A stretch of DNA of 64,000 bases from Psammoneis japonica (Eukaryota): assembly GCA_008632985.1 (NCBI GenBank), contig QPGO01000002.1:62001-126000 (forward strand), in the 5' to 3' direction. The notes under the pieces were generated by a model that searched no databases, was not told where the DNA came from, and saw only the letters and a list, made by a program, of their open reading frames with translations. Below, piece after piece: positions 290 to 64,000 of this stretch; position 1 is the first letter of the stretch; each line of letters opens with the position of its first letter. Made by a program: the position numbers and the translations under genes.

Positions 290-1050
290 CCGGGATTGCC
301 ACCTTTTACCCTGTTTTTCCGCGGGAAGGGTGAATTCCCGGGGAATCGCCACGAATTTCCATTCGTCACATGTGTGCTTGACACATGAACAAAAAACAAT
401 GCATTGGCAATTCCCCGTGCTTCCCTTCTCGCACATTTCTACGTGTTCTGCATGCCGGCATGTGCAGAACCACACACCAGATGCGCAACAATCAACCATC
501 GACCAACGACCACAGCCAAAAATGGGCAACACGCCATGGAGCGTTCGCGCCCTGTTTGTGACGGCTCTTGTCAAACAAAAATGATGCCAGTCAATCCAGT
601 GAGTGAGATTATGATCAACAGTGCAAAGTGAAACTGAGCAGACGTGTGACAGATGATGTTGAGCAGAAAACCAGTGCATTGATCGTTGCACTTGTTTTTC
701 TTTCCTGTGGTCACAAATGTGAGCCATGCGGCGTTCATGGCAAAGTTAAAGGCAAAAGCAGAACCGCACATGGCTGACAAAAATGTGGCGGATTGAACGG
801 TCATGGTTTTTGTTTCAATTGACACATCTCATGTGCAGAATGAAGCGGGTCGTTTGGAATCACTCCGTTGTTGTGCAGCCACAAATGCAAACCATGAGGC
901 GTGTGGAGAGAAGGCTGAGGCAAAAGCAGAGCCTCACAAGGTCAATGAAAATGTGGCGGATTGACTGGCAATGTTTGTTCTTCCCTTTGACCTGTCTCAT
1001 GCACAGAATGCAGTGCATCATTTTTTCCTTCTTGTGTCGTGTGGTCACAT
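290..1050 (+). repeat. Dispersed repeat family A with internal ~180-bp subrepeats; inverted copy at about 15540-16260
   Basis: Blocks such as ccctgtttttcc..gggtgaattccc..gccacgaa and gcattggcaattccccgtgcttccc..cacac..agatgcgca recur as reverse complement at 16020-16205, with a partial copy near 14290-14390. Boundaries approximate. Confidence 0.75.
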
Positions 1051-1090
1051 GTGCAAACCACAACGGCTCTGGAGCAAAGTGCCCCATGCA

Positions 1091-1511
1091 TGTGCCAGGC
1101 GCTGAAAAAGAAGATGTGTTGCGACTTTGTCGTTGTGAAAAATGTGAGTTAGTTTAGAGCAGAAAAAGTGGGATCGTGCGAATGGGGAATCTTGCCAAAT
1201 CCCCATTCGCTCGCATTTGGATCGCATCAAATCGATCGTGCGTTTGCATTGTGGATCATGCGAATCAAGCCATCACGCGCCATGCACGAGTGATGTCATC
1301 GTGTGGAATCACACTGCCATCGTGGGCCAGATGACGGGCCAGTGTGCTTCACACGGATGCTCTCTTGGCATCCTTCTGGAATTGCCTGAGACCCAGAGCC
1401 ACGCCCTCCTGTGGTCGTGCTTCCCAGGTGCGTGTTAACAACACTGCGTTGCCACGCACAAGAGGCTTGTGCACGGTCTCGCCGTGTTGTCCAGCAGCGA
1501 GGCATGCTGCA
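1091..1511 (-). repeat. 3' LTR of gypsy element
   Basis: tgtgccaggcgctg...ggcatgctgca, same length as and near-identical to 5876-6296; PPT at 1512-1520. Confidence 0.95.
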
Positions 1512-1519
1512 CACTCCCC

Positions 1520-3008
1520 CATGATCAGGGCCGTTAAGTGACAGGATGTCTTGCTGGTGACAGGGTGCAATCTGCCGCAGATTGCATGCATCTGTCAGCG
1601 CTCCGTTCTGGATGCGCAACGTGCCGTTGTCACATGCACGGACAACTCTGGCGGGTCCTGCACAGCTGTCAGAACCGCATTTAGAGGATTGTTCCTGTTT
1701 GATGAGTGCCAATTGCCCTGCCGCACATTGACACTCCTTGCGTTTCTGATTTTCACACTTGTTGTTCAGGTGGATGAGCTTCTGCTTTCTGGTTTCTATG
1801 TGCTTCCACTTGGCACGATGGGCAACAGACAAAACCGCATCGCATCCGAAGACCAATTGCATGGGACTTGCACGCGTGGTCATGTGCACCGCAGCTCTAA
1901 CAGCGAAGGCCACTGTGGAGAGGATGCCACTCCATGGGTCATCTTTGTCTGGTTCCATGTCCTGTGCTGAAAAGGAACGCACCATGTTGCCAAGTGTCTG
2001 GTGCGCACGTTCCACTGTGGCGTTCGCCTGTGGATTCCGTTTGCTTGTGGGTTTCTTCAAAATCCCACAGTCATTTTTAATCATCTGGCTAAATTCTGCC
2101 ATAAATTCTGTCCCACGGTCATAAACCACCTGGGTTGGCCACGGACATCTGCATGGCCACGTTTGTTCTACGACGTTTGCTGCGACGTCTGCGCGTTTTG
2201 CAGACACTTCTTTAATCTCGAACCACCCGGTTGCTGGGTCAATCATTGTGACTGCCCATGACTGCAAAGTGTCTTTTCCGCGTCTTTGAATTTCACATGG
2301 CCCTGTCACATCAATGCACAGAGTCTCCCATGGAATTGTCTCAGCAACCTTTTCTGGCAGCTTCCCACAACGCTGCATTCGGCGTTTTGTCTTCTGACAT
2401 CGATCGCACTTAACGCACGTAGATTGCACCGTAGACCTCATGCCAGGCCAGCAGAAGTGCTGGGCAATGGATGTTTCCGTGCGTGTCTCACCTGGATGAC
2501 ACAGTGTCTCGTGGTGCCATTCAGTTAGCGGAACCTGCAATGACTGTGGCACTGCGATTTTGTCCTTATGACAGATTGACTGTCGTGATGACCCTCCCCC
2601 ACGATGCACGCGAATGGAGCAGTCGGACGAGTCCTCAGCTCGTGAGAGCAGGCGCTTGTCCTTTTGTTGTTCTTTTTGAATGCGCTTGAAGCTGACAGGC
2701 AGAGATGCCTCATCTTGAGCGTCTGCATTAAAAGCTTCATGCAAAGGACGACTCGATGGAGTGTCTTTTACATCCGGATTGGCCTCCGAAGGCAAGCTGG
2801 GTGCCAGCCGAAGGCGACTGAGAGCATCAGCGACTGGGTCATGGGTGCCCTTGACACAGCGTAATTCGGGACCGCATTCTTCGCATGTCAACCGCCAGCG
2901 CATGACGCACTCGGCATTGAATGCTTTGTGTGCAAGATTTTTATGATCAGCATGTGTGATTGTACGATGACCAAGGAGAATCGTTCGAAATTCTTTCAAC
3001 GTCTCCAC
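1520..3008 (-). pseudogene. gypsy pol: end of RNase H and integrase
   Basis: VADALSRL, zinc-binding HETLCHPG...C-x2-C, D(RGTEF) and NPQANATVERAH integrase core. The ORF reads through into the LTR because stop codons were lost. Confidence 0.9.
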
Positions 3009-3330
3009 AATGGCGAGTGATTCTCTCTGTTGTTGTGCAATTCAATTGCGCACTGTTGAGCTTTCTGCTGTAAAAGGCGATGGGTTTGTTGTCTTGGGAC
3101 ACAACTGCTCCCAATTGACATTTAGAGGCATCACTGTGCATCTCAAAGGGTTTGTTAAAATCAGGATGTGGCAACAAAACATCATCCGACATCACCCGTT
3201 TGATGGTTTCGAATGCCTCGTCTTCAACGGACGTCCACTCCCACTTGACAGTCTTGCTTGCGAGTCGTGTCAGCGGAGCCAAGACTTCAGAACGTCTGGT
3301 CCACGTGTCGTGGCAGCAGTTCACCACACC
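2947..3330 (-). pseudogene. gypsy pol: RT connection and RNase H (frameshifted segment)
   Basis: LAPLTRL...W...AFE.IK, HPDFNKPFEMHSDASKCQLGAV, PIAFYSRKLN. Confidence 0.9.
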
Positions 3331-4826
3331 AACAAATGACGCAGGTCGCGTTTGTTGGTTGGGGTCGCGATTCGCTTGATGGCGTTGACTTTGTTGGGTG
3401 TTGGTCGTGTTCCGTCTCTGTTGACCAGATGACCCAAGCACTCCAATTGGGTTTGACAGAAGTGAGACTTAGTTGCATTAACTTTTAGCCCTGCTTTCTG
3501 CACCCTCAACAAAACTTCTTCAAGTTTGTTGAGGTGATCTTCACAGGTGCCTTTTGTCACGACGAGAAGGTCATCCAAGTGCGTTCGAACGAACGACAGA
3601 TCTTCAAATGAGCCTGACATGCGTTCTTGGAAAATGTCTGGCGAGTTGCACAACCCCGCGGGCAATGACTGCATCTCATGCTTGCCCCACGGGAAGATGA
3701 GCGTGCAGAGCTTCTTGCTGTCAGTGTCCAATCGGATGTGACAACAGCCCATGTTTAAATCCAGTGATGCAGCCCACACAAAGCCTTCGAGCTTGAGGAG
3801 CATGTCTTGGATGTGAGGAATCGGACAAGGCAATCGCTTGATCCGTTTGCTCAGCTCTCTGAAATCATTGACAAAGCGCACCGCCAAGTCTTTCTTCGGC
3901 ATGACAAATGATGGAGCTGCCCATTGGGATCGGTTGACGCGTTTGAGAACACCGATGCGCACCAGGCGTTCTACTTCTTTACGCAGCGTAGCTTCGCACG
4001 CACGAGGTGCTTTACACGGACGAGCGTGACATGGTTCTGCACCCTCCTTGAGTTGGATGTGGCAGGGTTCTCCCTTCCATTCTCCCAATGTCCCATCAAA
4101 TGAGGACTCATGGCATTTCAATGGTGCCAAAAGGTCGTTTTGTTGAACTGTGGAAAATTCTGTTGCCCCTCGCGTTATGTCCTTGAGGCATGCCGGCGTG
4201 CACTTAGCGTCTGAGATGCGCAAAATCCGGTCGGTTTCCGAAGATGAGACTTCTGGATCTTGAAGATAGAAGGAGGTTTCTGCCGCAGCATCTACGTGCC
4301 TCATTGGCACTTCTCCATTGACCAATGGCCACTCTGTCATCTGTTTAGAGAAGACAATGTCAATGCCTTGTGTCTCCAGAACATCACGTCCAACAATCAC
4401 ATCATGCTTGCCCAACTTTCCGTTGTGCACATGGATGGCATGTTTGAGTTCTGCAGTTTCGCATGATTCTGGTAACCGAAATTTAACGGCACTGTCGTTA
4501 GATGCACTGAACGAGCCTGCTGCCGTGGTCCAGTTTGTCTCAGCCGTTGAATGGCTTCGCAGACGTTCACAGCATCGACCATTGAGCAGAGCACTGCTGG
4601 CGCCACCATCTGGCAGTGCCTTGATGGTTTGAGTCTTGCCCTTGCCATGTTTGGCATTCACAGCTGTGAACAAGATTGGAGTGAGATGAGTCTTTTTAAC
4701 TCGTTTGCGGGATTGGCCTGCAACACGTGTACGATGGTAACTCAGTTGTTCATCAACACATTCATCTGATGTGTCAAAACCACCTGCATCGTGTCGGCAA
4801 GTGTCCGAGTCTTCGGAATCACTCAA
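3321..4826 (-). pseudogene. gypsy pol: aspartic protease and reverse transcriptase
   Basis: ALPDGGASS (degenerate LxDSGA), WAAPSF..PKKD..VRF..DFREL, LDLNMGCCHIRL (=GYYH), THLDDLL (=YLDD). Confidence 0.92.
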
Positions 4827-5803
4827 GTTGAGGTCGCGGAAGTGATTGAGCTCCTCCTGCGTGCCTTGCGCTTTTTCTGAGCATTGGCAAAGAACTCCTT
4901 GACCTTCGGTCCGACAAGAGCATTGATGTCTTCCTCATTCCGAGGTTTTGCATCAGGCTTGCTGCCTCCGTCACTGGAATGTCCAGTCTTGACACGTTTC
5001 ACGTGGGTGTTCGGTTGGGTCGTGATCAACGACTCACAATTGTCCGTTCTACGTCCCCGCTTACGTGGGACCCCAGCATGTGGGTCGCGGCTGCCTTCGG
5101 CAAGCTCGACCTGCTCGGTGCGCTCGCAGAACTGCACAAATTCGGCGATGGCATGCGCCAACGGGTCAAAATTCTGCAACGTCATGAACTTCTGCCATGC
5201 GTTCGGCACACCGTGCTCGAACATGTCGCACAGTTCGTCATTGGGCAATGGTGCCGGTGCTTCTCCATCCTCCATCACGGGTGGAAACTGAGAGACACAG
5301 CCATTAATTTCAACAGCCCTCGCGACGTGGTCACAAGCAGAAACCTCTGCGGGCTTGCACATGAAGCGCCTCAGATGACGCTTCTGCAACAGTGCCGCCC
5401 TGTGTGGGAAGACACTTTCCTTTAGCTTCGCGACGCATGCTGCGTACGTGGCGTTGGTTTGAGATGCCTGCTCATCAGCGGCATTGTCAAATGACGTCAG
5501 AGCATCGCCCTGTAGCAGGTCACGCATGAGGGCAAATTTTGCTGGCCCGGTCGTCATGTTTTGTCCTTCATGCACGCGTTCCACGTTGCGCAGAAAGATT
5601 GGGAGTGTCTCGCATGTAGCCACAGAAAGGTGCGGGATGCCCATCTTGTGCATTGGACTGTCCGGATCAGCAGGGTTGTTACGCAGCTTGAACGTCTGGT
5701 GCTCGCCCTGCTGTGGCTCTTTCTTCTCCGGCCATGCGAACGGAATCGGCGGCTCAACCCGCTTCTTCATGGTCGTTTTGAGATTTGTCGGTCCTGCCAA
5801 CAT
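4823..5803 (-). pseudogene. gypsy gag-like ORF
   Basis: 326-aa ORF between the 5' LTR and pol; LLQGDALTSF...FP..A...QKRHLRRFM.KP resembles stramenopile gypsy gag. Confidence 0.75.
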
Positions 5804-5875
5804 TTCGTAGTTTCATTTCTGCAGATTTCGTTGCCTCGCACAACATGCAGGAGTGATGTTGCTGTGCCCTGTGTG

Positions 5876-6296
5876 TGTGCCAGGCGCTGAAAAAGAAGAC
5901 GTGTTGCGACTTTGTCGTTGTGAAAATTGCGAGTTAGTTTGGAGCAGAAAAAGTGGGATCGTGCGAATGGGGAATCTTGCCAAATCCCCATTCGTTCGCA
6001 TTTGGATTGCATCAAATCGATCGTGCGTTCACATTGTGGAATGTGCGAATCAAGCCATCACGCGCCATGCACGAGTGATGTCATCGTGTGGAATCACACT
6101 GCCATCGTGGGCCAGACGACGGGCCAGTGTGCTTCACACGGATGCTCTCTTAGCATCCTTCTGGAATTGCCTGAGACCTAGAGCCACGCCCTCCTGTGGT
6201 CGTGCTTCCCAGGTGCGTGTCAACAACACTGCGTTGCCACGCACAAGAGGCTCATGCACGGTCTCGCCGTGTTGTCCAGTGGCGAGGCATGCTGCA
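5876..6296 (-). repeat. 5' LTR of gypsy element
   Basis: Direct repeat of 1091-1511. Confidence 0.95.
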
Positions 6297-6824
6297 AAAG
6301 GCCAAGGCAAAAATGGAGCCACATGTGAGCAATGTCAACATGTGTGATTTAATGGTGAAGTTCATTCTTCCCTCACTCTGCCACAAGGGGCCGCTTTGTG
6401 TCGATTTGTCAATGCATCCGTCACGGTCGTGCATCGTTTTTTCCACGCGCCGGTTGCCACAAGGACAAAAGCACACCCGCCTGTTTACAATTGCCGCACA
6501 TTGCCGCACTCCATTTGTTTTTGCTTCCCCTCCCCTGAGCCCTTTTAGTCGTTCCTTCCTCCCTTGCCCTTGCCATTTTGGGGAATCCCCAAAAGGGCAA
6601 AACCAAACTAAGATGAACGCATTGAATGGTTCTTGCAATTGCAGGTTTGCATTGTGTGTGCAGTGTTGTCAAAAGACCATGTCAGCTGCATCCAACAAAC
6701 GGCGCCAAAGGACAACCTGAAACAACAACAACAAATGAAGGCAACACAATGTGCGTGACGCAATTGCTTGTTTGGATTGCTTGTTTGGATTGATTTCACT
6801 GGCACAGTCAGGGTTTGGCGGATG

Positions 6825-7265
6825 TGTTTGTTCACAGAGTCAATTGAAGCACAGCTTCGTAAACCACAGTTGTTCAGAGCATCAACAAATTTGTTCAGAG
6901 TTGTGATCTGTTTAAATGGAGAGGCTGTCGTCATCCATTGGGGATCCAAACTTTGTTCAGAGCTGTGCTCCAATCAAATGGAGATGCATGGGCATCCAAA
7001 CATTGTTCAGAGTCGTGCTCTGATTGAATGGACACAATCACAGCAGCGCTCTGAATGTCAGCACAATGCTCTAATTTGCAAATTGATGCTCTGAATGCAA
7101 TGCTCCAAACAAAATTCTGTGGCTCCAAATGACCAAATTTACTCTGATTGTGCTCTGCGTGGGCGTCATTGCCTTGGTTGACTCTCATTTGCTCTGAATG
7201 TCCCACATTGTGTCGGGATGATTCAAACAAAGCATGTTGCTCAGAATAAAATGTTCAGAGCACAA
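6825..7265. repeat. Cluster of short TGTTCAGAG / TGCTCTGAA motifs in both orientations
   Basis: The motif recurs more than ten times at irregular 20-60 bp spacing. Confidence 0.5.
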
Positions 7266-7327
7266 ATGAAGAGAATCTCATTTGCAGTGCAGCGGGAGAT
7301 TCAACCAATCCAACAGCATGTTCTGTC

Positions 7328-7786
7328 ATGCAAGACGACGATGATTCTTTCCCAACTGGCGGAGACAATTTTCAAGATTCCAGCTCACTCATGATGGGTG
7401 AAGACATCATCAATGTGGATGACTGCAAGGTTGCTGTTGATTCTCCAGAGGGTGAGACTGTTGCAGCCCCTCCTTTTGCAGGCAAACTTCCACCCGGCAA
7501 GAACGCTTCCTGCTGCACTCCTCATCAACCCGCACAAAATGCGCCACCTCCTGGAAACAACAAAGCAAATAGAAAGGTTGGCAAAGGAAGGGGGGAAAGG
7601 AGGTGTCGAAATTGTGGAGTGGACAAATCAATTGACACTTGCAGCCTTCATCACAAATGGATGGGATTTGACAAGGTGACGCGAAAGTGGACCATGCCCA
7701 ATGACGTGTGTGCCACCCCACCAAACAAACAATTGCCTGGATTCCCTGTTGTCGATGGCGTTTGCATGGAAACAGTGAAAAAGTAA
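7328..7786 (+). pseudogene. Hypothetical protein fragment with a CxxC...H motif, probably TE-derived
   Basis: Protein-like 152-aa ORF (acidic N-terminus, RRCRNCG...HH); no family recognised. Confidence 0.3.
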
Positions 7787-8293
7787 AACACGTCCACTGC
7801 TGAATGTCACCAAGGGTCCGGATTCAACAAGCAGCTTCATTCAGGAGAACGATGTCTGCACAACACCAGCAGATGAATGCTTGGATGGGTTCCCCATGGC
7901 CAGTGGGGTGCGCATGGCCAAATTGTGACAAAGTGGAGTTCACTTTCCCATCTGTCCACTCTGCTGGAGCAGAGCAAGTGCACCCCACATCAACCTGTGC
8001 GAAATGGTGCAAACCCCAGAAAAGATGCAGCAAGCAGAAAGATCAGTGATGGAAATGGGAACAAATGGTGCTGAGAATTTGGAATTTCATGCCTGAAATT
8101 TGGCATTCACGTCACAACGGAAAAAGAGCTGCTGTCCATGGTGGAAACACTTGGGAAATTTTGGAATGCACTGTTTGGCCAACACATTGACGTGTGATCT
8201 CCTGCACACTTCAAGCCAAATCCACCTCAATGAAGGTCAAGTGCAGAACACCCCACCCAATTTCTTCATTGCTGGACATCAAATCACATCCCT

Positions 8294-8402
8294 TTGGTTG
8301 GTTGGTCAGTGGGTTGGTTGGTCAGCGGGTCAGCGGGTCGGTGGGTCAGTGGGTCGGCGGGTCGGCAGGTCGGTGGGTGGGCGGGTCGGTGGGTCGGCGG
8401 GG
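8294..8402 (+). repeat. Degenerate GGTY-GGYR octamer satellite
   Basis: ggtcggtg/ggtcggca/ggtcagcg/ggttggtg units; related arrays at 10125-10500 (inverted), 12018-12146 and 14784-15266. Confidence 0.85.
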
Positions 8403-9499
8403 TTCACAAGACACAACAAACAGAGTCATGGGTGGGCAAATTGATGCAGCACACAATGAGGGCATGGCGAACATTGTCGCAGAAGCATTCAGCCAACTTG
8501 CTGTGAAGAAAGTTGAGCCTTTTGAAATCCTGCAACAATGTCCTGCTTTTAAAACAAGACAATGACATTTCCTCCAAATTGCCAGATGCAACACATCTTG
8601 CCAACACTTTTCATGGAGGCAAGCAAGATCAAAAAGTGCTCATGTCACAAGGACAAAATTGTCTTGTCTGAAGACGCTTTGAAAAAATTGGTGACAGATT
8701 GGCGCACAATGCGTGCCCACTTCACACTGAAAAAAAAGACAGTCTCGCAACACCCGCGCAGTTGCAGTGTAAAATGTGCAAGGCAAGACACAAACAAACA
8801 ACGTCACTCTCAAAAGACATTTGGAAATTGGAGCGGCCCTGTGTGGCCCACACAAAACAACAACAGTCATTGCCAGCGGCACAATGCAGACAACGTGGAG
8901 ACATCATTGATGCTGTCAATGTCTGTTGAACAACTCAACTTCTTGTCAAATGACTCCAATGTTTGATCTCACATTTTCCACTTTGTGCACTTTGTTCTGC
9001 TTTCCTTTGCGCTTGTTCTTTGAGCACAGTGCACCAGAGCAGATGTTTGAAAGGTTCCTTTGCACTGAGTGATGTTTTGACGTGTCCCAGAGAAACAGAT
9101 TGATGTTGAGTTCAGGATGCCTTGCAAAGTGCAATGTGTTTTTGCCAAAAATGAGCACAGTGCATTGTGCACACACACCACAGAAGGTGAAATGGTGCTG
9201 AACTTGTTGGCACCATTGGTTTTGTCATTCAATGCACAACATGCGTGATCACAGCCACAACTTGTGGCAGCAACTGTGGTCTTCCCAGGGCCAGTTGGTG
9301 ACAAATTGACTGTCGCAGCTGAGTTTGCGTCCAGTGCTGTGAAAGCTGTTGTTGGCAAGCAAGCTGAAGCTCAAGAAGGCCTTGAGGGAACGGAGCAAAG
9401 AGGCAGAACACACGGTCAATTTGGGCTTGCCTTGAGAGAATGTTGCAGCTGGCAACAAAATGAAACGTCTCACATTCAGCCAGCAAGCCAGTCATTCAG

Positions 9500-9661
9500 T
9501 CGGCAGGTTGGCTGGTCCGTTGGTTGGTTGGTCGGTTGGTCGGTTGGTCGGTTGGTTGGTTGGTTGGTTGGTCGGTTGGTCGGTTGGTTGGTTGGTTGGT
9601 TGGTTGGTCGGTTGGTTGGTTGGTTGGTTGGTTGGTTGGTCGGTTGGTCGGTTGGTTGGTG
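9500..9661 (+). repeat. (GGTT/GGTC)n tetranucleotide microsatellite
   Basis: Seen directly in the sequence. Confidence 0.95.
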
Positions 9662-9712
9662 ATGAAGGTTTGGCCACTTTGAGCACTTCTGAGGCTCAAA
9701 AAAGGGCCAGGG

Positions 9713-10077: not shown

Positions 10078-10152
10078 AGGGACAAGGACAGTCAGGGCAT
10101 GGGATGAAAGGGAACTTCAGCGCCAACCCACCGACCCACCAACCCGCCGTCC

Positions 10153-53796: not shown

Positions 53797-53827
53797 GATA
53801 CCCAGGACTCTCGCATAACTTAAGTCG

Positions 53828-54253: not shown

Positions 54254-55109
54254 ATGGAAATAACCCTAAAACCAAGCCTTGATGGCTCGGGGCTCTTGAA
54301 AATGTTGGAAGACAAACTGTCAGGACAGCTCGAACGGAATCTCCAAAACCCGGCCAGCACACCATGCCGAAGAAGGCTTCAAAGGTAATGACGCAAAGAA
54401 TAACTCTCCTATAAACACCGGGAAACTTGGAACGCGCTTCCTCTCCATGGACGGCTTCCTGAAATGGAACTAGTAGGATGATGGAGCCATCAAACAGCAA
54501 AACCGGCACTTAAGACACAAACAAGCACGCATCAGAGAGGAACATTAGATTCAGTTTCCGGACTAGGTCCTAACCAACACACTGTGTCCTGCACTTTGAG
54601 AATGGGCTTCACGGACTGTTCGTTCTTGTTTTCGAGAGCCCAACTCTTGAACAAGCAATCCGAGGAAAACAAAACACTGGAGTAGTCAAGGCTAAGACAG
54701 GCAGCGCAATGGCATAGCCAGAAGTAGCAAAGGCGTGCGGTAGATACAAAGTGGTAGGCCCCACCAGTCCCGCTGAAGGGTGATGACGATAACGGAGTTG
54801 CGCCAACGTCGACAGCGTTGTCGTTGCCATTCTTTCGCACCGATGCGTCTTGAAGCGACACCGCGGAGCGGCGGCGAACCCCTTCCTTTCCAATCTTTTT
54901 CAATGAGACGTGCGACAGCCCGGGATCCTCCAATGAAATCATGGTGACTGGTGCTAACATGCTAGAAACCCACAAGGCAAAACATATAAAGAAAAAGCGA
55001 CACGCGTTCTATGCAACGACAGGAATCGCACAACGTACAGCACACTCACAGCGAGTTCACTCTTGACAAGATTAGAAACCATCATTTGAGTTGGTCCCAC
55101 GCATCGTTC

Positions 55110-55400
55110 CAAGAGATTGGATACAACCAGTTTGGCGCTTGACTAGAATGTTGAAACTAATGCCAGGGACAAAGAGAGCAGGTCTCGTTCCGTTGGCGTT
55201 GCAAATCGTGGTGCGAATCTCCTCGTCGCTCAGTCCATCGAAGGCGCCGACAGAATTCATGGAAGACGAAAACGCCTCCGTGAAAATATAGGAGACACGC
55301 GCTCCTCTAAAGAGCTCATTCAAGGAGTTGTGCTTAGCGCCATTACTGGGTATAATGACCACCGCGACCTTCAAGGATCGGCGCAAAGCTGTACAGTATC
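55110..55400 (-). pseudogene. Dynamin-related protein (Drp1/Vps1-type) middle-domain fragment
   Basis: ELFRGARVSYIF...FDGLSDEEIRTTICNANGTRPALFVP.ISF.ILVKRQ is the dynamin central-region signature; no GTPase domain nearby. Confidence 0.8.
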
Positions 55401-55699
55401 GTTCACGGAGAGCGATTCTCCAAAACATCGAGTTTGTGCGTCAGAAGAGCCACGTTCATATCCCAACACGCAACACGTGAAGCCTTGTGGTGGACTCTGT
55501 CATTCACAGGCGACAAAAGCCTTAGGTGCAGTAAAGTCACTTCTCGAATCTGGAAACGGATGTTACCCTCTCTTGTCGTACTGCGCGCTGCTGCTTTGTG
55601 CCGGTAGAACGTTATTGAACATGCTCATCGTCATTTTCTTGGAAGCAAATTCACGAATTTCAAAATCACATGTGGACGAGAGACAAGCCACGTGGAAGC

Positions 55700-58250
55700 A
55701 AAAAAACTGTCCTCGACGTTTAGGTCGACTACGCGATGCTCTCACCCGCAGGACTTCCCCCGAACCCGTCAACGTGCCACCGCCAACGACTACCATAAGT
55801 TGCTTGGAGAACTCCGTTCGCTCTCGCTTGCCACACCCGGCTCCCGAGGCCTTTTCTCTGAGCTGCAAGACGCTCTCCGTCACACCCCACCTGACTCCCG
55901 TGTCCGTTTGACTCCCACCGTGCACAGTGTCTTGGATGATTTCAGCGATCTCACCACAACAATCGAAGATCGACCCGCACGCATCCAAGAGCTTGCACCG
56001 TTGGACTTTACCGTGCATGGCTGCCATGACGCCGCCGGCCATGGTGCTGGTGGTGTCCTCCTCCCAACTCCTGCTGCTGTCCCCCGGGCGGCCCGGGTGA
56101 AGCATTCACCCCCCGAGGGCGGCCCCGGCGCCAGCAGGATTCAGGCCCCGCGGCATGGTGCATGCCCTTTCCCTGCAATGTCACCATGGATTTGGCAACC
56201 TTTGACAGCCCCAATGGTTCCATTGCCAACACTGACCTCGAATTAGCAGGTGGCATGCTCCACACCCATGCCGCCACGGATTGTTTCGATCTGCGGGAAC
56301 GCACCAACCTGCAGTGCACCGACAGTTTGGGCACAATGTGCTGGCAACGTAAGGGCTCTTCCACCACTGCCAAGCCCTGAGCCAAGCTCCCACACCATGC
56401 CGCCTGTCACCAATGTTGTCACTGCCACATTGCGCTGCATGATTGCCTGCCGCCGGGGCCGTTGAGCACAGCTGCTGACGATGCCTCCCGCCTTCAATCA
56501 CTGACCACTGCTGCCTTTTTGTGACATTTTAACACTTTTTGTCCCCAGACCAAATCTTGGCACTTGTGGACGCTGCCACAAGAGCTGCGTTCCTGCGCAA
56601 TCTTGGCGCTGCGCAATTCGCAGTCACCAACTCCGTTGCCCCTGCACGCGCCACCGCCTGCGACACCCATTGGACAAAATGGACTGAATTTTGTGCTGAC
56701 ATGGCCATCGACCCATTGCTCCAAGCCATCGACAACCCAGTTCTCTTCCTCCAGGTCTTCATGCACTGACACAGAACTGGCCAAATCGCCCCACATGGCC
56801 ATCCCATCAAAGCACGCACCGCTGAAGATGCCGTGCGGTCGGTTGGACAAACGCTTTCTGCAATGGGGGCCCCAGACCCACGCAAAACACCCCAAGGCCA
56901 AATGGATTTCCATCTTACCCAACAAATCCGTCACTGGGTGAAACCCATCCCGATCACTGTTCTCCATTGGATCCTCACGTCGGCGGCCACTGGTCACCAC
57001 CCCGGCACCATGGCCATTGCCGACATGATCACTCTTGCATTCTTTTGTTTGATGTGACCCGGCAAATGCACTGCAACACCACCCGACTCCACCCCATTCT
57101 GTCTGGCCGATTTGTGTCTGAGCACTGGTCAAGCATGCTTGGATTTATTCACTTGCCCTGCTGCCCATCTCAATGCTGCTGCCTTTGCCATGCTTGCTTT
57201 CACCACCCAGAAAAATGGTGTCCGTGGTGAAGTCACAGGTCAAGGCCTCTCTGGGCATCCTCAACTTTGCCCCGTCAAGGCTGCAGCACGCCAAGCTCTG
57301 CATCTCCGCTCCCATGGAGCGCAACCTGACACTCCGCTGTCCGTTCATTTTCACAATGGTGCCTGGCATTGTGTCACTCCTGCTGACATCACTGCCATCC
57401 TCTGCACCGCTGTCCTGGCCTCGGCCCTCAGAACCTCAGTTTTGCACCTGGCAATGTCTCTGCCCACAGTCTTTGAGCTGCAGGTGCCATGGATTTGCTG
57501 TGTGCCCGAGTGGACACGGACATTGCACATCTCTTGGGTTGCTGGCACTCTGATGAAATGCCTCGGCACCTCCACCTTCAGGCGGAACCGATTGTGTGCC
57601 ATTTCTCTTGATGGATGCTCCAAGGTGGCAACTTTGTTCTCCTTCCGAATGCCAATGTCCCCATTGACCCTCCGTGAGCACCACACCCACCAGACGTGGC
57701 CCACCCTCCCGCCCAAGTCACAGGCCCTCCACTGCATTGCCACGCTGTTGTGGGTGGCACTGGCGGCCTGCTGTCCAGCTTGGGTTTGGGAGCAGGGCTT
57801 CCTGCAGCACTGGCAAAGCCATCTCCACTCCTGCCTGTTGGATTTGGTCCTGTTGTGTCTTGTCTCCCAGCTTGAATCACTCTGCCGAGGACAAACGAGA
57901 AAAGCGGCGACAGCTGCTGTCCTTGTGAGATCCGCAAAGAGGGACTCCCAATTCCTTTCCCGTTGAAAGTGCCGTGCGTTGCACAGGAGTTAGAATGACT
58001 CTTCTCTGGCTTTCATTGTTTTCATTCTTTTGAGAACAACAACAGCAAGCCGGGCTCTAGACAGCCAATCGCTCCCACCTCTCCCGCCCTCTGGCCTGCC
58101 TGCCGTCCAGCTTGGTTTGGGAGTGGGGCTTCCCACAGCGCCAGCAAAGCCATCTCCACTCCTGCCTGTTGGATTTGGTCCTGTCATGTCTTCTCTCCTG
58201 GCTTGAATCACTCTGCCAAGGACAAACGAGAAAAGTGGCAACAGCCGCTT
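55700..58250 (+). mobile_element. Tyrosine-recombinase retroelement relic (DIRS/Ngaro-like): RT end, RNase H, YR and terminal direct repeats
   Basis: YHKLLGELRSLSLATPGSRGLFS, HDAAGHGAGGV, IANTDLELAG, RSVGQTL..MGAPDPR, AFFCLM*PG, FTTQKNGVRGE, LCPVKA, HSL*AAGA, GCWHSDEMPRHLH (=GRWxSD..LRYLH); duplicated block about 57767-57915 and 58095-58245. Confidence 0.82.
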
Positions 58251-59236
58251 TCTTCTGTCTTTTGCACCCAAAAACCGCCAAGCAACAAAAAAAAAAAGAT
58301 CGGTTGCTCACGCTTTACGCAGTTGTTCTCAGCTCACAAGGAATGCCCCTCAACACCAACGAGTGTTTGTTGGACCCTGTTCTTCCTGATTTGTTTACGT
58401 TCAATCCTTTCATGGCTGTGATCCAGTGTGCAAAGATGAGTTTGAACAAGGTGCAGAAGGTCTGAACCTGACCGAGATCACCGGGTGCTTTGATGAGCCA
58501 GGCAACAGTGCAGACACATGTTGTGAGTTGAGTGGAAGACCAATGAGCTTCGTGCTTGATGCACTCAATGCTCTGGCACACGACAGCCAGCTTGACTTGA
58601 TTTCATGCTCATCAAGCTTCCAGCTCTGTCTCGCCATCTCACCTGACCTGGTCGCCACATTGAATCACTCATCAAGTTTCTTGAGCAAAATTTCAATGTG
58701 TGTTTTGCAATGTTTCGCGGGTGCTTGAGGCACAACAAAATTTGGTTCAGCAGCCACAACAATGGGGTGATGTTGGGGGTCAAGACAAGATGCACATGGA
58801 AGTTGATGATGCACACTTTGCAAGTCTGAGTGCTCAATTTGGAGAGTGGATGCACCACAAGGGAGAATCGCTGATGACGCTCTTGATGGAGTGGGCACGG
58901 CACACAGCACATGGCATGCAGTCTCAGCCCTGTGCAAAGTGCTGGCCATTTCAGTTGACATGCATGATTCCTTGATGAGAGTGCAACATCATCCAAGAAT
59001 CGATCAGCTTTGTGTGCAGTCCCTTCTGCAGCAGTGTGGCTTCTTCCCAGTTTTCTTTTGCCAGGCCTTCTCCAAAACAAAAAATGCTGAATCTGAGCAT
59101 GGTGGAGAGTGGTGTGCAATCTGAAATCTCCAAATCACCGGCACATGCTGTGCCAACAATCCAAAGCAGTGGCACAAATGACAAGACATCCAACAGCAAG
59201 TGTGGAACTCAAATGCTCTCACTGCACTGCTGCTGG

Positions 59237-59345
59237 ATGGGCTCCAGTCCCAGGTGGGACTCTGTTTGACATTGGGCCCGCAGAACCCCACATGTGAGCT
59301 GCACAGCACAAGAAATTAATCAGTGGACACATTTGTCTTCAACAT
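59237..59345 (-). mobile_element. Truncated end of the MITE family
   Basis: gatgggctccagtcccaggtgggac...ttgacattgggcccgcagaa matches the MITE right terminus in reverse complement. Confidence 0.6.
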
Positions 59346-60495
59346 CAAATGAATGACCAAATTTGCAGTGCAACTGTGCCTCTTGCCATGTCAAACTGCA
59401 CAACAGCAGCTGGGATCCCCACCCAAAGTTGTGCAATGACTTCTGTCACACAGCTGCAGGAAAAGAAGAAGCTGTTGTTTTGGTGCTGCAGGGCCTCTCT
59501 GCCCTGCAATCCCAACAACAGGCAAGTCCATGCTTGCGCTGCACCTGGCAGCAATGCGAAAGTGAGTGCAGCTGGCCTGTGTTTGCATTGCACAATGATG
59601 CCAACCCACATCAAACAAGACAACCACAGCATCACACTGCAGTCAAAAGGGTTGGTGCTCACAATCATTGGAACAAAGCAAACCACTCAAGCACAGCTGT
59701 TCTGTCTTTCAAGAGCAGGTGTGAGGCATTGCAGCAACTCAGATTTGGGTTTGCAGCTTTGGGCACCACCTTTTGTTGCAGTTGCCAACTTTTGCATGGC
59801 CAGGATGCCAGCCCCCATTGGCTCTGACAGGCTGTCTCAACACATTCAAAGGAGGCTCAAATGCACAAGTGATGTTTTCCACCTTGTGCGCACAAGTTGT
59901 GTCAATGTTGCCGGTGGGGGGGTCTTTTGGTCACAAACCAAAGCTGCTCCTCTCTCCTTTTGCTCTTCTCTTTTGCTCTCTCTCTCCTCCCACTCTCTCC
60001 TGGAGCTGCTGACTGCCACAAACTCTCAGATTCTGTGGAGAGTGTTCTGCAACCATGTCCATTGTCAAAGCAACATGAACAAGTCAAAAAACATCCAATG
60101 ATGGAAAAACACATCATGTGTTTGGATTGACATTTGTGTGAGTGGGAAAACATTGTCAAAGTGTTTTGGTTGAACGTTCTCATCAAGGGTGGTTGTAGAC
60201 CAGCCAGCTGCAAGACTGCATGCCCGCTGCATGGCACTGCACAAGCAAATGCAGCTGCCGGATGGGCTCAGCCACTCACAGTCTTGGTGGCTCCAGAGTT
60301 CACTCAGTCCCCTTGAAGTGTTCCTGGCAGACTTGGCAGGGACAATTTGTCCTGGTGCTGACCCAGTGTCTCCCAAACAACAACCACAATCTCTGAGCAT
60401 GGTGCAAACCCTCGCTGGGGACAAAATCGCCAATCACAATCTTTGAGCATGGTGCAAACCCTCACTGGGGAAGAAAATCACCACTGCTCCATGCA

Positions 60496-63470
60496 TCAAA
60501 CTCTGTGCATGGACTTGTCTAAGAACAGAAAATTCCATCTGATGGATGACACAATCTTCATGAACTGATTGCTCAGGTTTGTCTCTGTTCCTTCCTTCAC
60601 AATCCCAACAGTCCCTGCAGCAACAGCTTTGCGGTTGCGGTGATGTGCAACGGAATGATGTTTCTTCTTGAGTGTAGACTCAGCAACAGAACAGCTCTTG
60701 CAGACGGCCTTGTTGTCACAAAAGACATTGGCTGGCCCTTTGATTGGCACACCAAACATTTGAAGCTTGCGTCACAAACCCTCTGTGATCTCAACAGCAT
60801 TCTTGAGCGTGACAATCTCAGCTCCAAATGTGCTGGCCTCCACAGCATTCTGACGCTTCGAGTGCCACATGACAGGTGCCTGATTGACAAATGTCAAGAT
60901 GCCTGCACAGCTGCAATGATCAGCAACATTGCCAGCATGGCTGTCATCCACAAAACAATGTGTTGACACTGCGTTGCCTTGAGCAGGCAGTGCATTAGTT
61001 GGGATGGCTGCCAGTGAAAGTGCTGCCAATCGCACTTTGCAAATTGCAATTCATCTGTCTCAGGATGAGCCGGGTCAAATGCAATTTGGTGCTTTGCAAC
61101 CTGTTTGAGATGCACAAAGATGTGCAGCACCTGTTCCAGGTGGCCAATGCAAGGCAGTGCAAGGTGAGCAGCAGACATGAATGAAACTTCCAAATGCATG
61201 TCCACTCTGCCAAGTTCTGTGGCTCAAACCATCATGTCAGTCAACCCTTGGCAGCAGATCAGTCCTTTGGCATCTAATTTGCCAGTCATGCCCAACTCAG
61301 GTTTGTGCTCACTGCTCAGCGGAGTTGTTGCCTTGCCAGGCAGACATTTCCCTTCCTTGCCAAGCCCATCCTTGACATTCTGAACAGTGGCCTTGCAGCA
61401 CTTCTCTGCAGACATGGCCCAACCTGCAGCCCCACTGGCCAAAGTCATCTTGCAAAGAGCAGCACCAAGATGAGAATCTGACTCAGCTGCCTTGTCACCC
61501 TTGAGCTTGAACTTGGACCTGATGCCATCCATCATCTTTGTGGGTTCATGACCAATCAACAGCACATCATCAACATAAACTGGAACGCACTTGCAGTGCT
61601 TGAATCCATCCATTTTCACCACAGGTCTCATCCATGCATCCGGGTTGGCCTTGCTCGGTTTGTGCCCCAGCTCACAAAGCGTCTCCACTGGAAATGCTCT
61701 GAGCGCTGCTCTGGAACTCTTAAATCTGCACAGAGCCCTGACCACAATCATGATGCAGCCTTCATTCTCACCAAATTCAGATCCTGCATGTGTCCAAATC
61801 TTCTCCCTGCAAAGGGCAGCAAGGCACGCATTCTGGATGTCACACGCAAAAACTTGCAAGTCGTTGAGCACTGCAAGCATGAGTGCAATTCTTGCCAAAT
61901 GTGGAGAGACAACAGAAGAGCAGGTGATGTGTGCACGGGGGGTCCTGCCACCACACAAGCTTTGTGCGGCGGAATTTTTCTCCCATCTTGATGTCAAAAA
62001 TCACATGGCACTTCACTTCCAGGAACCCATGCACCATGTCGTCAAGCTCCCCTTCACACTTTTCAAAAGCAACCCACACATTCTTCATCTCCATGCAAAC
62101 GGGCATCCTGCCAGAGGGTGTTGCCATTTGCACAATCAATCTGAATTGCCTCCTTGATGCTCTTCAGAATCCAAATGCCAAACTCGTGCTTTGGAAGCCA
62201 GCACTTTGACTTGACCTTTGCAATGGAACGCTTGCAAGTTCTCACAACATGAGGACCCACCAAGCAAACGCCGCCTCCTTTGAGATCCTGCGTTGAATGG
62301 CAAACTTGGCAACTTGCACAAGAAAGCTCTCTTTGGTGTCCTTCAAGTCAACCCATGTTGTGCTTCTGTCCTTCCATTGGAGCACAAGTTCCCATCCTTT
62401 GGTGGACTTGCACCCTTTCCCAATGCCCTCCTCAGTCTTGAAGAACATGGATTGTGGAATGTCCCCATTTGCACAGAAATCTGCCATCTTGTCAAATGGG
62501 AGGTGCCGGTTCCCAACCTTGGCAATCTGTGCAAACACTCTCATGGCAATGGAGTCAGCTGAGAGCACAGTGCAATGCCCATCAGGGTGCTCTGCCTCAT
62601 GCATCCTTGTGTCAAGGATGGGATTGCCATTGTCATCTCTCAACCTCTTTGTGACACAAGCAAAACTCAGGGCCATCATCATCTCTTGATGGAAGTGCAA
62701 CTTCCATGTTGAGACATCCCCAGTCAGCTGCCTCCAGCATTGATGCTGATGTCACAAGTCTTTGTGTGGTCTTCTTGAGTGTGTTTGCCACTTGCTTGAG
62801 CCTGATGCACCATTGTTTGCTTGAGTCAGCAGTCAGCGGCCAACACATTGCCATGCCTCTCCTCAGACATGAAAGTCTTTTGGAGCACTGAGTCTTTCTT
62901 GTCCTTCGCCAATCGTCTCCATGGCAGAGATCTGGGCTTCCAATGTGGAGATCTGGACTTCCGACTCTGCTCCCACATTGACAGTCTTGAGCTCAATGGT
63001 CTGTGGATTTCAAGGTTGTTGGGAGGTCATCTGGATCTTTGGGCATTTGTGCAAGTCCTGCTCTGTGGGAGTGCAGGTTGTCACAATGCAACAATGTTGG
63101 CCCCCATGGCTTCAAGTGGCACAATGAATGACTTGTCCTCCACAAGGATGATGTGCAGTGGCAAGTCAGAACAGGGATTGTCCTGGACCTTGACACCAAG
63201 ATGCCACAGCTGCTTTATGCCAACCAACAAGTTCTCCATGGAATCAGGCATCCACAAGCCCTGCGGTTGAAGACCAGAGTGAACGTTGCTCCCAATGTTG
63301 GTGACGTCCAAGCTGTGGCCACTGAAACTGTTGGGACACTCTTGATGGAATCGCACCCCTCATTGAAAGGCAGCACATTGCATTCTTGTCCAGAACAACC
63401 TGAGAAGGTAAAGCTTTGACCAAAAACAGTGGAGTCAGCATGCAAATCCATTTCATGTGTGAGTGATTCA
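60496..63470 (-). mobile_element. Ty1/copia relic (protease, RT, RNase H; integrase largely missing)
   Basis: DLHADST (protease), STKGWELVLQWKD.ST.W..LKD.KES, DIQNACL, VYVDDVL, FVDDSHAGN, VEASTFGAE, FCDNKAV, STLKKKHHS. Confidence 0.88.
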
Positions 63471-63788
63471 TGTGTCAGATGGCACTGCTGAGATGCGTCA
63501 TGTCAAGGCAACAACTGCGTGGATTTTGTTTTTCTGATTGACATGGCTGTCTCCAGCCCCAATGTGGCAACCACAACATGAGGTCCGTGATGTTGCTGAG
63601 CAGGGGATCCAGCTTGGCAGTGTCAACTCTGCTTTCCATTGCACCTTCTGCTGTGACCACCAAATGCATCCCCAGCATTGTGCCCATCTTGAGCATCATG
63701 CCTTGAACTGCCATTGCCAGAATCAGTGTTGATGCTGGTGTTCAAGGCAGAGATTTTACAGCTTGCTTCTTCAACCCTTCAACCACCA

Positions 63789-63963
63789 CAGAGCAAATCT
63801 CCACGGGTGGAGATTTGCTCTGCTCAAGGAATTGTGATGTGTCATGCATTTGCATGACAATGCAGTGCACATGTCATGAAAAGGCACATCATGTGCAATC
63901 TGCGTAAAACACACCACAGGCAATTTTTCAATGCAAGCAAATCTCCACCAGCGGAGATTTGCT
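63789..63963. repeat. Two related palindromes AGCAAATCTCC-n-GGAGATTTGCT
   Basis: 16-bp perfect stem at 63789-63822 and 11-bp stem at 63936-63963. Confidence 0.8.
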
Positions 63964-64000
63964 CCAAGGGTGTGGCATTTGCTGCTCCATTGTGATTGTG

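What the first reader, a model, noticed from the sequence alone, without database searches (positions are those of the whole stretch)
290..64000. Region-wide TpA to TpG/CpA hypermutation of repeats: a candidate 'reverse-RIP' genome-defence system
Seen: TA is almost absent over ~55 kb while TG and CA dominate. In five unrelated element types, invariant Tyr codons (TAY) read Cys (TGY) or His (CAY): gypsy HLDD and GCCHIRL, copia NACLEA, ALHGL and CVDAN, LINE SHRAEAHG, YR catalytic RHLH. Leu CTA also becomes Pro CCA. Established: fungal RIP runs CpA to TpA and creates TA, and 5mC decay acts on CpG; neither removes TA. Inference: a DNA-level A>G (T>C) mutator acts on TpA on both strands in repeat-rich chromatin. 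Candidate chemistries are adenine or 6mA deamination, a mispairing thymine modification, or an error-prone polymerase. It destroys catalytic tyrosines and so inactivates TEs. I do not know of a described mechanism, but cannot check the literature.
Basis: partly seen in the sequence, partly recalled or inferred. Interest (0 to 1): 0.95.

Follow-up and report, generated by a model that had tools for sequence, protein, structure and literature searches.

The report
TpA-erasing hypermutation of a transposon graveyard
About 50 kb of dead transposons in this eukaryotic window have had nearly every TA step rewritten to TG or CA after insertion, a DNA hypermutation so far described only once, in a 2026 preprint on a different alga.

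Summary
TpA observed/expected is 0.10 for the window and 0.05-0.06 outside a 5-kb island, while TG and CA stand near 1.7. Comparison with relatives polarises the change. In a gypsy and a copia element, 69 of 71 conserved Tyr columns are changed, mostly to Cys or His, against 234 of 1245 other conserved columns. Ancestral TA became TG or CA at 12 of 13 sites. None of 80 related copia loci from metagenomes has TpA O/E below 0.35. The two LTRs of each element resolved the same sites differently (TG versus CA), so the mutation acted on DNA after integration. I estimate it at roughly 300-400 times the background rate. It is regional: a degenerate dynamin fragment in the island keeps TpA O/E 0.52. 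Contigs of a public run carry the same bases. The same TpA>TpG/CpA signature was reported in 2026 in mutation-accumulation lines of Bigelowiella natans, so it is not undescribed. The enzyme is unknown there and here. Verdict: genuine, striking, probably a second instance of a just-described process.

The parts
1..49500 (.). TpA-depleted, transposon- and satellite-rich zone. TpA O/E is 0.06 over 6300-49500 and CpG O/E about 0.5.
1079..6296 (-). Gypsy-type LTR retrotransposon. LTRs lie at 1079-1511 and 5864-6296 (94.7% identical) and pol at about 1554-4622. 24 of 25 conserved Tyr columns are changed. TpA O/E is 0.195 and CpG O/E 0.86.
16342..23432 (+). Copia-type LTR retrotransposon. LTRs lie at 16342-16622 and 23152-23432 and the polyprotein at 17560-23096, with two frameshifts relative to homologues. 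45 of 46 conserved Tyr columns are changed. TpA O/E is 0.07.
8304..15267 (.). Arrays of 8-bp satellite units (GGTCGGCG, GGTTGGTT, GGTCAGCG and variants; CATTTTCG), broken by three N runs. TpA O/E is 0.02-0.10 in the 2-kb bins.
51200..56000 (.). Island that keeps TA (O/E 0.44, peaking at 0.66) and CpG (O/E about 1). TpA O/E falls gradually on both sides, from 0.66 to 0.1 over 2-4 kb.
51241..53223 (+). Open 661-aa frame of an unnamed protein family (75 representatives at E<=1e-3, no Pfam domain). Tyr is 1.8% of residues and TpA O/E is 0.31.
54866..55390 (-). Degenerate fragment of a dynamin-related gene, covering only residues about 370-585, with an internal deletion and a frame change. It keeps TpA O/E 0.52. 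All organism-named nearest homologues are diatoms.
56200..64000 (.). Second TpA-depleted transposon zone (TpA O/E 0.045, CpG O/E 0.31). It holds a copia fragment at 60583-61919 on the minus strand.

Best explanation
The window is a heterochromatin-like block of dead LTR retrotransposons, unclassified repeats and satellites from a microbial eukaryote. After each element integrated, a regionally targeted DNA process converted the A:T pairs of TpA steps to G:C. It did so on either strand, giving TpG or CpA, until almost no TpA was left.

My rough estimate of its rate is a few hundred times the background substitution rate and about twenty times the rate of CpG decay in the same DNA. It prefers a pyrimidine after the A (TAT, TAC > TAG > TAA). 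It leaks a few kb into neighbouring DNA.

Its consequences are the loss of Tyr codons (TAY>TGY/CAY) and the loss of TAA and TAG stops. It also turns ATA/TTA/CTA/GTA codons into ACA/TCA/CCA/GCA, and it raises G+C. The elements' proteins are therefore irreversibly inactivated.

The chemistry I think most likely is enzymatic deamination of adenine to hypoxanthine in DNA by a TadA/ADAT2-type deaminase recruited to silenced chromatin. This is the same process as the TpA hypermutation seen de novo in Bigelowiella natans.

Shown here: the direction, the TpA restriction, action on both strands, timing after integration, regionality, the flank preference, and the co-occurrence with CpG decay. Inferred: that an enzyme does it, that adenine rather than thymine is the attacked base, what recruits it, and that it serves defence.
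For: Direction:
- 69 of 71 conserved Tyr columns are changed in gypsy plus copia, against 234 of 1245 other conserved columns (Fisher p=2e-44).
- Every I>T reads ACA (4), every L>S reads TCA (7), L>P reads CCA (2) and V>A reads GCA (6).
- 17 of 21 first-codon-position A>G replacements follow a T, against a 23% baseline (p=4e-8).
- At sites where at least 70% of 79 related loci agree, 12 of 13 ancestral TA changed (8 TG, 4 CA). CG changed at 4 of 6, GT at 5 of 12 (3 of the 5 are GT>GC), and the other 13 dinucleotides at 0-26%.

Not a family trait:
- 0 of 80 related copia loci have TpA O/E below 0.35.
- At 12 Tyr columns the relatives carry at most 2 Cys/His (61 loci 0, 15 loci 1, 3 loci 2), while the window carries 10.

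After integration, on DNA:
- The gypsy LTR pair has 6 TG-versus-CA sites where 0.07 are expected from CpG decay. It also has 4 TA-versus-TG/CA sites, only 1 shared TA, and 3 other differences in 349 sites.
- The copia LTR pair has 7 TG-versus-CA sites where 0.5 are expected.

Both strands: TG 6511 versus CA 6533.

Regional:
- The island has TpA O/E 0.44-0.66, and the dynamin fragment within it keeps 0.52.
- TpA O/E correlates with CpG O/E over 61 one-kb windows (Spearman 0.65, p=1e-8).

Flank preference:
- Among the 182 surviving TA in depleted zones, TTAA is 4.5x and TTAG/CTAA 2.9x over-represented. ATAC/GTAT is at 0.07x and ATAT is absent.
- Where a C precedes a Tyr codon, the outcome is 18 Cys to 1 His.

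Assembly: contigs of public run X1 match with 0 differences over 951 and 1893 bases.

Precedent: in B. natans mutation-accumulation lines, 230 of 231 mutations in two viral inserts are A>G or T>C and all of these fall on TpA. The rate is about 1000-fold raised, and an ADAT2-like candidate is named.
Against: - No genome is held. I therefore found no deaminase gene and could make no genome-wide contrast between genes and repeats. The only internal control is one 5-kb island, whose TpA O/E (0.44) is itself lowish.
- TA is a palindrome, so adenine- and thymine-directed chemistries give the same products.
- The rate estimate rests on 3 background differences in one LTR pair and on an assumed share of hidden concordant sites.
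- The flank preference is inferred from survivors and from 57 Tyr outcomes. It uses relatives' coding DNA as the expectation, and one class (CTAC/GTAG, 1.34x) fits the additive model poorly.
- The listed differences between the run's contigs and the window are mostly CpG-type. Only about 2 of 40 are TA-type, so current activity is not shown.
- Defence is an interpretation. The same pattern would arise as a by-product of some chromatin state.
Confidence: 0.6

Rival explanations
1. Thymine-directed chemistry. The T of TpA in silenced DNA is modified (for example oxidised or glycosylated by a TET/JBP-type enzyme) or excised, and is then repaired or copied as C.
For: The products are identical, because TA is its own reverse complement. 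The flank rule reads equally well as 'purine before the T'. The co-variation with CpG decay shows that the region carries base modification.
Against: Nothing in the sequence favours it. The one experimental precedent proposes adenine deamination, although it does not prove it. From recall only: TadA/ADAT enzymes naturally read a U before their target A, which would explain the strict 5' T.
Confidence: 0.12
2. Untargeted genome-wide TpA mutation bias. All DNA of this organism loses TA quickly, and only selection keeps TA in functional sequence.
For: Even the island is TA-poor (O/E 0.44) and the open 661-aa frame has 0.31. No genome-wide data are available.
Against: The dynamin fragment is degenerate (internal deletion, frame change) and so presumably neutral, yet it keeps O/E 0.52. 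The 1.6 kb beside it, where I found no gene, keeps 0.585. The gradients at the island edges suggest spreading from a targeted block. In B. natans the process is local.
Confidence: 0.1
3. Error-prone patch repair. Mismatches from 5mC deamination recruit long-patch repair with a polymerase-eta-like enzyme, which miscopies T at WA motifs (recalled from somatic hypermutation biology).
For: TpA loss and CpG loss co-vary (Spearman 0.65). A>G at TA is the commonest polymerase-eta error (recalled).
Against: AA and TT, the other half of the WA motif, are not depleted (O/E 1.27 and 1.24). In the young gypsy element TA is nearly gone while CpG is barely touched: 27 CpG are shared by its two LTRs and 4 differ. 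TpA loss therefore does not wait for CpG events.
Confidence: 0.07
4. RNA editing before copying. ADAR- or TAD-like A-to-I editing of element transcripts is fixed by reverse transcription.
For: ADARs favour a U before the edited A (as cited in the preprint's Discussion). Sense-strand outcomes are somewhat in excess: Tyr>Cys 37 versus Tyr>His 20.
Against: The two LTRs of one element are copied from one RNA, yet they differ as TG versus CA at 6 and 7 sites. Both strands are hit about equally. Satellites and unclassified DNA are as depleted as the retroelements. A 3' G is disfavoured here.
Confidence: 0.03
5. Artefact of sequencing, assembly or data handling.
For: The pattern is extreme. The window has three N runs.
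Against: Contigs assembled independently from a public run cover 38-58 kb, some with no differences, though that run may come from the same sample as the assembly. The changes respect biology: an island is spared, and codon-level outcomes are coherent.
Confidence: 0.01

Closest known systems
Localised TpA>TpG/CpA hypermutation of integrated viral DNA in Bigelowiella natans (Mettrop et al., bioRxiv 10.64898/2026.01.13.699255; abstract, Introduction, Results and Discussion read, supplements closed)
   Same: The changes are A>G/T>C only at TpA, with both strand products. They are regional, at 100- to 1000-fold raised rates. They leave a long-term footprint of low TpA with high CpA+TpG. TpA-poor coding sequences there are enriched in reverse transcriptase and transposase domains.
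   Different: There the targets shown de novo are a giant-virus insert and a virophage insert that still hold many TA (rho 0.45). The text never mentions LTR elements or diatoms. Here the targets are LTR retrotransposons, satellites and unclassified repeats, driven to near saturation (O/E 0.05) over about 50 kb and with parallel CpG decay. The host is probably a different lineage, since all organism-named dynamin relatives are diatoms. Here the evidence is historical, not de novo.
Repeat-induced point mutation (RIP) of ascomycete fungi
   Same: It is a DNA-level, dinucleotide-specific, saturating transition mutagenesis that kills transposons and leaks into neighbouring DNA.
   Different: RIP runs C>T, mostly at CpA, and so creates TpA and lowers G+C (abstracts listed). 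Here TpA is destroyed, CpA/TpG are created and G+C rises. Dependence on duplication is not shown here.
5-methylcytosine deamination (CpG decay) in methylated repeats
   Same: It also yields TpG/CpA and is at work in the same DNA. Evidence: CpG O/E 0.25-0.5, Arg>His/Cys/Trp/Gln in 23 of 61 conserved Arg columns of copia, and CG/TG differences between LTRs.
   Different: It cannot remove TpA. Relatives with CpG O/E about 0.2 still have TpA O/E about 0.5.
ADAR hyper-editing and APOBEC editing of retroelements
   Same: They are deaminase-driven clustered transitions that inactivate mobile elements. ADAR favours a 5' U.
   Different: These act on RNA or on single-stranded cDNA before integration and are strand-specific. 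APOBEC gives C>T/G>A. Here the change follows integration and hits both strands.
TadA/ADAT2-ADAT3 tRNA adenosine deaminases, with reported DNA activity of amphioxus and trypanosome ADAT2 (as cited in the preprint)
   Same: The chemistry is A>I. From recall: their natural target A34 always follows U33, which gives a built-in 'TA' context.
   Different: No such gene could be looked for here. From recall: the natural tRNA substrates have G, A or C after the A, whereas here T and C are preferred.

Membership tests
B. natans-type TpA hypermutation | The changes are almost only A>G / T>C. | tested here: met
   12 of 13 ancestral TA became TG (8) or CA (4). Of 69 changed Tyr columns, 57 became Cys or His.
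B. natans-type TpA hypermutation | The changes are restricted to TpA. | tested here: met
   TA O/E is 0.10 while AA is 1.27, AT 0.92 and TT 1.24. 17 of 21 first-position A>G replacements follow a T.
B. natans-type TpA hypermutation | Both strand products (TpG and CpA) appear in the same region. | tested here: met
   TG 6511 versus CA 6533. Both Cys and His outcomes occur within each element.
B. natans-type TpA hypermutation | It is confined to particular regions of foreign or mobile origin, with the rest of the genome ordinary. | tested here: inconclusive
   The island at 51.2-56 kb keeps TA, but no genome is held.
B. natans-type TpA hypermutation | The rate is about 1000-fold above background, measured de novo. 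| not testable with these tools
   The historical estimate from one LTR pair is about 300-400-fold, resting on 3 background differences.
B. natans-type TpA hypermutation | The host is a chlorarachniophyte. | tested here: inconclusive
   All 8 organism-named homologues of the dynamin fragment among the 120 listed are diatoms. A ninth carries a Cyclotella cryptica-style tag, which I read from recall. The top hits are unnamed.
Fungal RIP | C>T at CpA (or another CpN), which creates TpA and lowers G+C. | tested here: not met
   TpA is destroyed and CpA/TpG are gained.
Fungal RIP | It is triggered by sequence duplication. | not testable with these tools
   Copy numbers and crossing history are unknown.
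ADAR-type editing fixed by retrotransposition | The changes are made before integration, so they are shared by both LTRs and lie on one strand. | tested here: not met
   There are 6 and 7 TG-versus-CA discordant sites in the two LTR pairs.
CpG decay by 5mC deamination | CpG is lost to TpG/CpA. | tested here: met
   CpG O/E is 0.25-0.5 in the repeats. There are 4 and 7 CG-versus-TG/CA sites in the LTR pairs. This is an additional process, not the cause of the TpA loss.
Polymerase-eta WA-motif mutagenesis | A>G at both TA and AA. | tested here: not met
   AA O/E is 1.27. The motif definition is recalled.

The most novel reading that the evidence does not exclude
A TpA-specific DNA adenine-deaminating genome defence is not a peculiarity of one chlorarachniophyte. 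It is a widespread system, possibly ancestral to the SAR lineages, that diatom-like algae aim at heterochromatic retrotransposons. It has its own flank rule (TAY preferred), spreads like RIP, and outpaces CpG decay about twenty-fold. That would make it an A-side counterpart of RIP and APOBEC, and a natural double-stranded-DNA adenine editor.
Probability: 0.35. Interest if true: 0.9.

Novelty: new member of a known kind. Interest (0 to 1): 0.7.

Why it matters
If the host is indeed not B. natans, this is the second organism, and the first retrotransposon case, of a hypermutation process known from a single 2026 preprint. It would show that the process can run to saturation and reshape tens of kilobases.

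It offers clean material for finding the enzyme. A strict 5'-T rule and a 3'-pyrimidine preference on duplex genomic DNA would be unusual for any known deaminase, and would interest base-editing work.

There are also practical consequences for annotation:
- Such regions have almost no TAA or TAG, so they produce long spurious ORFs.
- Their transposon proteins escape Pfam because Tyr, Ile and Leu codons are rewritten.
- Their TG/CA excess can be mistaken for CpG decay alone.

Tried and rejected
- Whole genome: none is held, so there is no genome-wide TpA map and no deaminase search.
- Rfam on the window: 0 matches.
- Viral-contig scan with the 661-aa ORF: none confirmed.
- ESM Atlas: nothing above 0.79 for that ORF. 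For a copia relative the taxa were 'not recorded'.
- Pfam on 16 homologues of the 661-aa ORF: only one Tudor-domain hit, in one protein.
- LINE and tyrosine-recombinase identities: no support from Pfam at E<=0.01 on 121 ORFs or at E<=1 on 30 ORFs. PDB sequence searches of 3 ORFs also found nothing.
- Small ORFs of the island: 0 Pfam hits in 36.
- Cluster look-up of 10 dynamin hits: no organism names.
- Sequencing runs: no RNA holder is listed.
- Laid contigs: of the 40 best-supported differences, most are CG<>TG/CA, 2 pairs are TG>CA doubles and about 2 are TA-type. They give no evidence on current activity, and 422 further differences were not shown.
- TG-versus-CA doubles across all 13 repeat pairs (44 events) are ambiguous between a TA and a CG ancestor. 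I relied only on the two LTR pairs, where the CpG expectation could be computed.
- Earlier findings of this scan: nothing on this genome and nothing related.
- Literature: seven searches returned only the B. natans preprint for this signature. A preprint on retrotransposon adenine methyltransferases does not mention deamination or TpA.
- Biased gene conversion was considered and rejected, because AT, AA and TT steps are not depleted.
- Selection against UpA in RNA was rejected, because conserved residues are destroyed and satellites are equally affected.


Full report
OBSERVATION

The window holds 406 TA dinucleotides in 64 kb, an observed/expected (O/E) of 0.10. TG stands at 1.69 and CA at 1.66, and CG is 0.55. 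AA (1.27), TT (1.24) and AT (0.92) are not depleted.

Outside one island the depletion is stronger. TpA O/E is 0.061 over 6300-49500 and 0.045 over 56200-64000. On both strands together there are 327 TAA, 217 TAG and 2909 TGA triplets. This explains the 47 stop-to-stop frames of 200 aa or more. Three N runs (272, 513 and 97 bases) lie at 10-15 kb.

Contigs assembled from a public run (X1) cover all 30 bins of 38-58 kb. Pieces of 951 and 1893 bases show no differences from the window. The assembled TG and CA bases are therefore supported, although that run may come from the same sample as the assembly.

WHAT IS THERE

- Pfam finds a gypsy-type pol (RT, RNase H, integrase) at 1.3-4.9 kb on the minus strand. 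It finds copia RVT_2 at 20.8-21.9 kb (+) and at 61.2-62.0 kb (-).
- Self-comparison gives the gypsy LTRs (1079-1511 and 5864-6296, 94.7% identical). It also gives the copia LTRs (16342-16622 and 23152-23432, 89.3% identical).
- Full-length homologues map the copia polyprotein to 17560-23096 and the gypsy pol to about 1554-4622.
- Arrays of 8-bp satellites fill 8.3-15.3 kb.
Their motifs exist, but Pfam gave only a zf-RVT hint at E=0.099 and the PDB sequence searches gave nothing.
- The island at 51.2-56 kb holds an open 661-aa frame of an unnamed family (75 representatives at E<=1e-3; no Pfam domain).
- The island also holds a degenerate fragment of a dynamin-related gene at 54866-55390 on the minus strand. 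It covers only residues about 370-585, with an internal deletion and a frame change.

DIRECTION OF CHANGE

I used 29 gypsy and 40 copia homologues, 45-60% identical and mostly from metagenomes. I scored columns where at least 80% of the homologues agree.

- Tyr is changed in 24 of 25 gypsy columns (15 Cys, 7 His, 1 Trp, 1 Met).
- Tyr is changed in 45 of 46 copia columns (22 Cys, 13 His, 5 Phe, 2 Ser, and 1 each of Trp, Arg and Leu).
- Together that is 69 of 71 Tyr columns, against 234 of 1245 for all other residues (Fisher p=2e-44).
- The other replacements are the ones expected from TA>CA within codons. I>T is always ACA (4), L>S always TCA (7), L>P is CCA (2) and V>A is GCA (6).
- Replacements also match TA>TG across codon borders. 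17 of 21 first-position A>G replacements follow a T, against a 23% baseline (p=4e-8).
- At nucleotide level I took sites where at least 70% of 79 related loci share a dinucleotide. 12 of 13 TA changed (8 TG, 4 CA) and 4 of 6 CG changed. GT changed at 5 of 12, and 3 of those 5 are GT>GC. The other 13 dinucleotides changed at 0-26%.
- The depletion is not a property of the element family. 80 related loci have TpA O/E of 0.35-1.02. At 12 Tyr columns they carry at most 2 Cys/His, whereas the window carries 10.

A SECOND, SLOWER PROCESS

CpG decay runs in the same DNA. In copia, 27 of 61 conserved Arg columns are changed, and 23 of them became His, Cys, Trp or Gln. CpG O/E is 0.25-0.5 in the old repeats. 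TpA O/E and CpG O/E correlate over 61 one-kb windows (Spearman 0.65).

Both processes feed TG and CA. So the TG/CA excess, and TG-versus-CA differences between repeats in general (44 events in 13 pairs), are ambiguous taken alone.

TIMING AND LEVEL

The two LTRs of an element are identical at integration.

- The gypsy pair has 27 shared CpG and 4 CG-versus-TG/CA sites. CpG decay should therefore give about 0.07 TG-versus-CA sites, but 6 are seen. There are also 4 TA-versus-TG/CA sites, a single shared TA, and only 3 other differences in 349 sites.
- The copia pair has 7 TG-versus-CA sites against 0.5 expected.
- Hence TA was resolved independently, to TG in one LTR and to CA in the other, after integration and on DNA. 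This excludes editing of the RNA template.
- For the rate I counted the visible sites and allowed for about as many hidden concordant ones. On that basis some 73-82% of ancestral TA were lost per LTR, while background divergence per LTR is about 0.4%.
- That gives a rate roughly 300-400 times background, and about 20 times the CpG rate (per-LTR CpG loss 0.069). With only 3 background differences, this is an order-of-magnitude figure.

REGIONALITY

- TpA O/E climbs from about 0.1 at 50 kb to 0.66 at 53.5-54 kb, then falls to 0.08 by 56.5 kb. Inside the island CpG O/E is about 1.
- The dynamin fragment is degenerate and presumably neutral, yet it keeps TpA O/E 0.52. The 1.6 kb beside it, where I found no gene, keeps 0.585.
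- This argues against a uniform genome-wide bias. The gradients look like leakage from the targeted blocks.
- The young gypsy element still has CpG O/E 0.86 but TpA O/E 0.195. TpA loss is therefore the faster clock.

FLANK RULE (tentative)

- Among 182 surviving TA in the depleted zones, TTAA is 4.5-fold and TTAG/CTAA 2.9-fold over-represented relative to relatives' DNA. ATAC/GTAT is at 0.07-fold and ATAT is absent.
- An additive model with the base after the A ranked T > C > G > A fits 9 of 10 classes reasonably.
- Tyr outcomes agree in part. Where a C precedes the codon, so that the opposite-strand A sits in TAG, Cys beats His 18 to 1. Where a G precedes it, the count is 8 to 11.
- The overall excess of Cys over His (37 to 20, p=0.03) may come from this rule rather than from transcription.

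COMPARISON WITH WHAT IS KNOWN

Seven literature searches returned one relevant work, Mettrop et al., bioRxiv 10.64898/2026.01.13.699255. I read its abstract, Introduction, Results and Discussion. Its supplements were not available.

- In mutation-accumulation lines of Bigelowiella natans, 231 of 302 nuclear mutations fall in a giant-virus insert and a virophage insert.
- 230 of those 231 are A>G or T>C, and all of these are at TpA.
- The rates are near 6e-7, about 1000-fold above the rest of the genome.
- The authors find 124 clusters of TpA-poor, CpA+TpG-rich windows, and TpA-poor coding sequences enriched in reverse-transcriptase and transposase domains.
- They propose an ADAT2-like adenine deaminase.

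The preprint text does not mention LTR elements, retrotransposons or diatoms. Its viral targets are far from saturated (rho 0.45).

WHICH ORGANISM

No genome or name is available. All 8 organism-named homologues of the dynamin fragment among the 120 listed are diatoms: Attheya, Mayamaea, two Cyclotella species, Thalassiosira, Skeletonema, Discostella and Seminavis. A ninth carries a Cyclotella cryptica-style tag, which I read from recall. The best hits (78-85% identical) are unnamed.

I read this as a diatom or a close relative, with about 70-75% confidence. One 70-residue conserved fragment is thin evidence.

MECHANISM

I commit to this reading: a chromatin-targeted conversion of the A:T pairs of TpA to G:C, on either strand, after integration. 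The most likely chemistry is adenine deamination to hypoxanthine by a TadA/ADAT-type enzyme.

My confidence is about 0.85 for the shown part, which is a regional, post-integration, TpA-specific DNA hypermutation. It is about 0.5 for adenine deamination as the chemistry.

The rivals are a thymine-directed chemistry, an untargeted bias, polymerase-eta-type patch repair, RNA editing and artefact. Each is set out in its own section with its tests.

VERDICT

This is probably a new member of a kind described only in 2026, and it is of high interest because the enzyme, the targeting signal and the phylogenetic spread are all open.

Noticed in passing
window 51241-53223 (+): An intact 661-aa open frame inside the TA-retaining island. 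It has 75 distant relatives (best 30% identity, E=8e-49) and no Pfam domain. One 1157-aa relative carries a PTM/DIR17-like Tudor domain. It may be the protein of an unclassified mobile element.
   Followed up: partly
window 54866-55390 (-): A fragment of a dynamin-related gene (middle domain only) with an internal deletion of about 44 residues and a frame change. One conserved Tyr reads His and the Ile after it reads Val (YINT > HVST), which suggests partial exposure to the same mutation.
   Followed up: partly
window 8304-15267: 8-bp satellite arrays whose unit variants (GGTCGGCG, GGTTGGTT, GGTCAGCG, GGTTAGTG) differ exactly at a CG/TG/CA/TA step. These arrays could serve as a dense read-out of both decay processes.
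   Followed up: no
P0054 (homologue of the gypsy pol, from an ENA metagenome): This relative has Cys or His at 6 of 18 conserved Tyr columns, while the other 119 have at most 3. It may be a partly hypermutated copy in some other sampled organism.
   Followed up: no
window 38001-58000, laid contigs of run X1: Word depth is about 190 over the island but 60-110 over single-copy parts of the flanking repeat zone. It rises to 59,000 over some repeats. The halved depth could mean that two diverged haplotypes assembled apart in the repeat zone.
   Followed up: no
L049, L001, L011, L006, L048 (metagenome relatives of the copia element): These relatives have CpG O/E of 0.18-0.24 and TG/CA near 1.4-1.7, but TpA O/E of 0.48-0.52. 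They show what CpG decay alone looks like in this element family.
   Followed up: no
whole window: TAA and TAG are nearly gone, so all six frames carry long open stretches (47 of at least 200 aa). Heavily mutated transposon proteins also fall below Pfam thresholds. Gene finders and repeat annotators would both be misled in such regions.
   Followed up: partly
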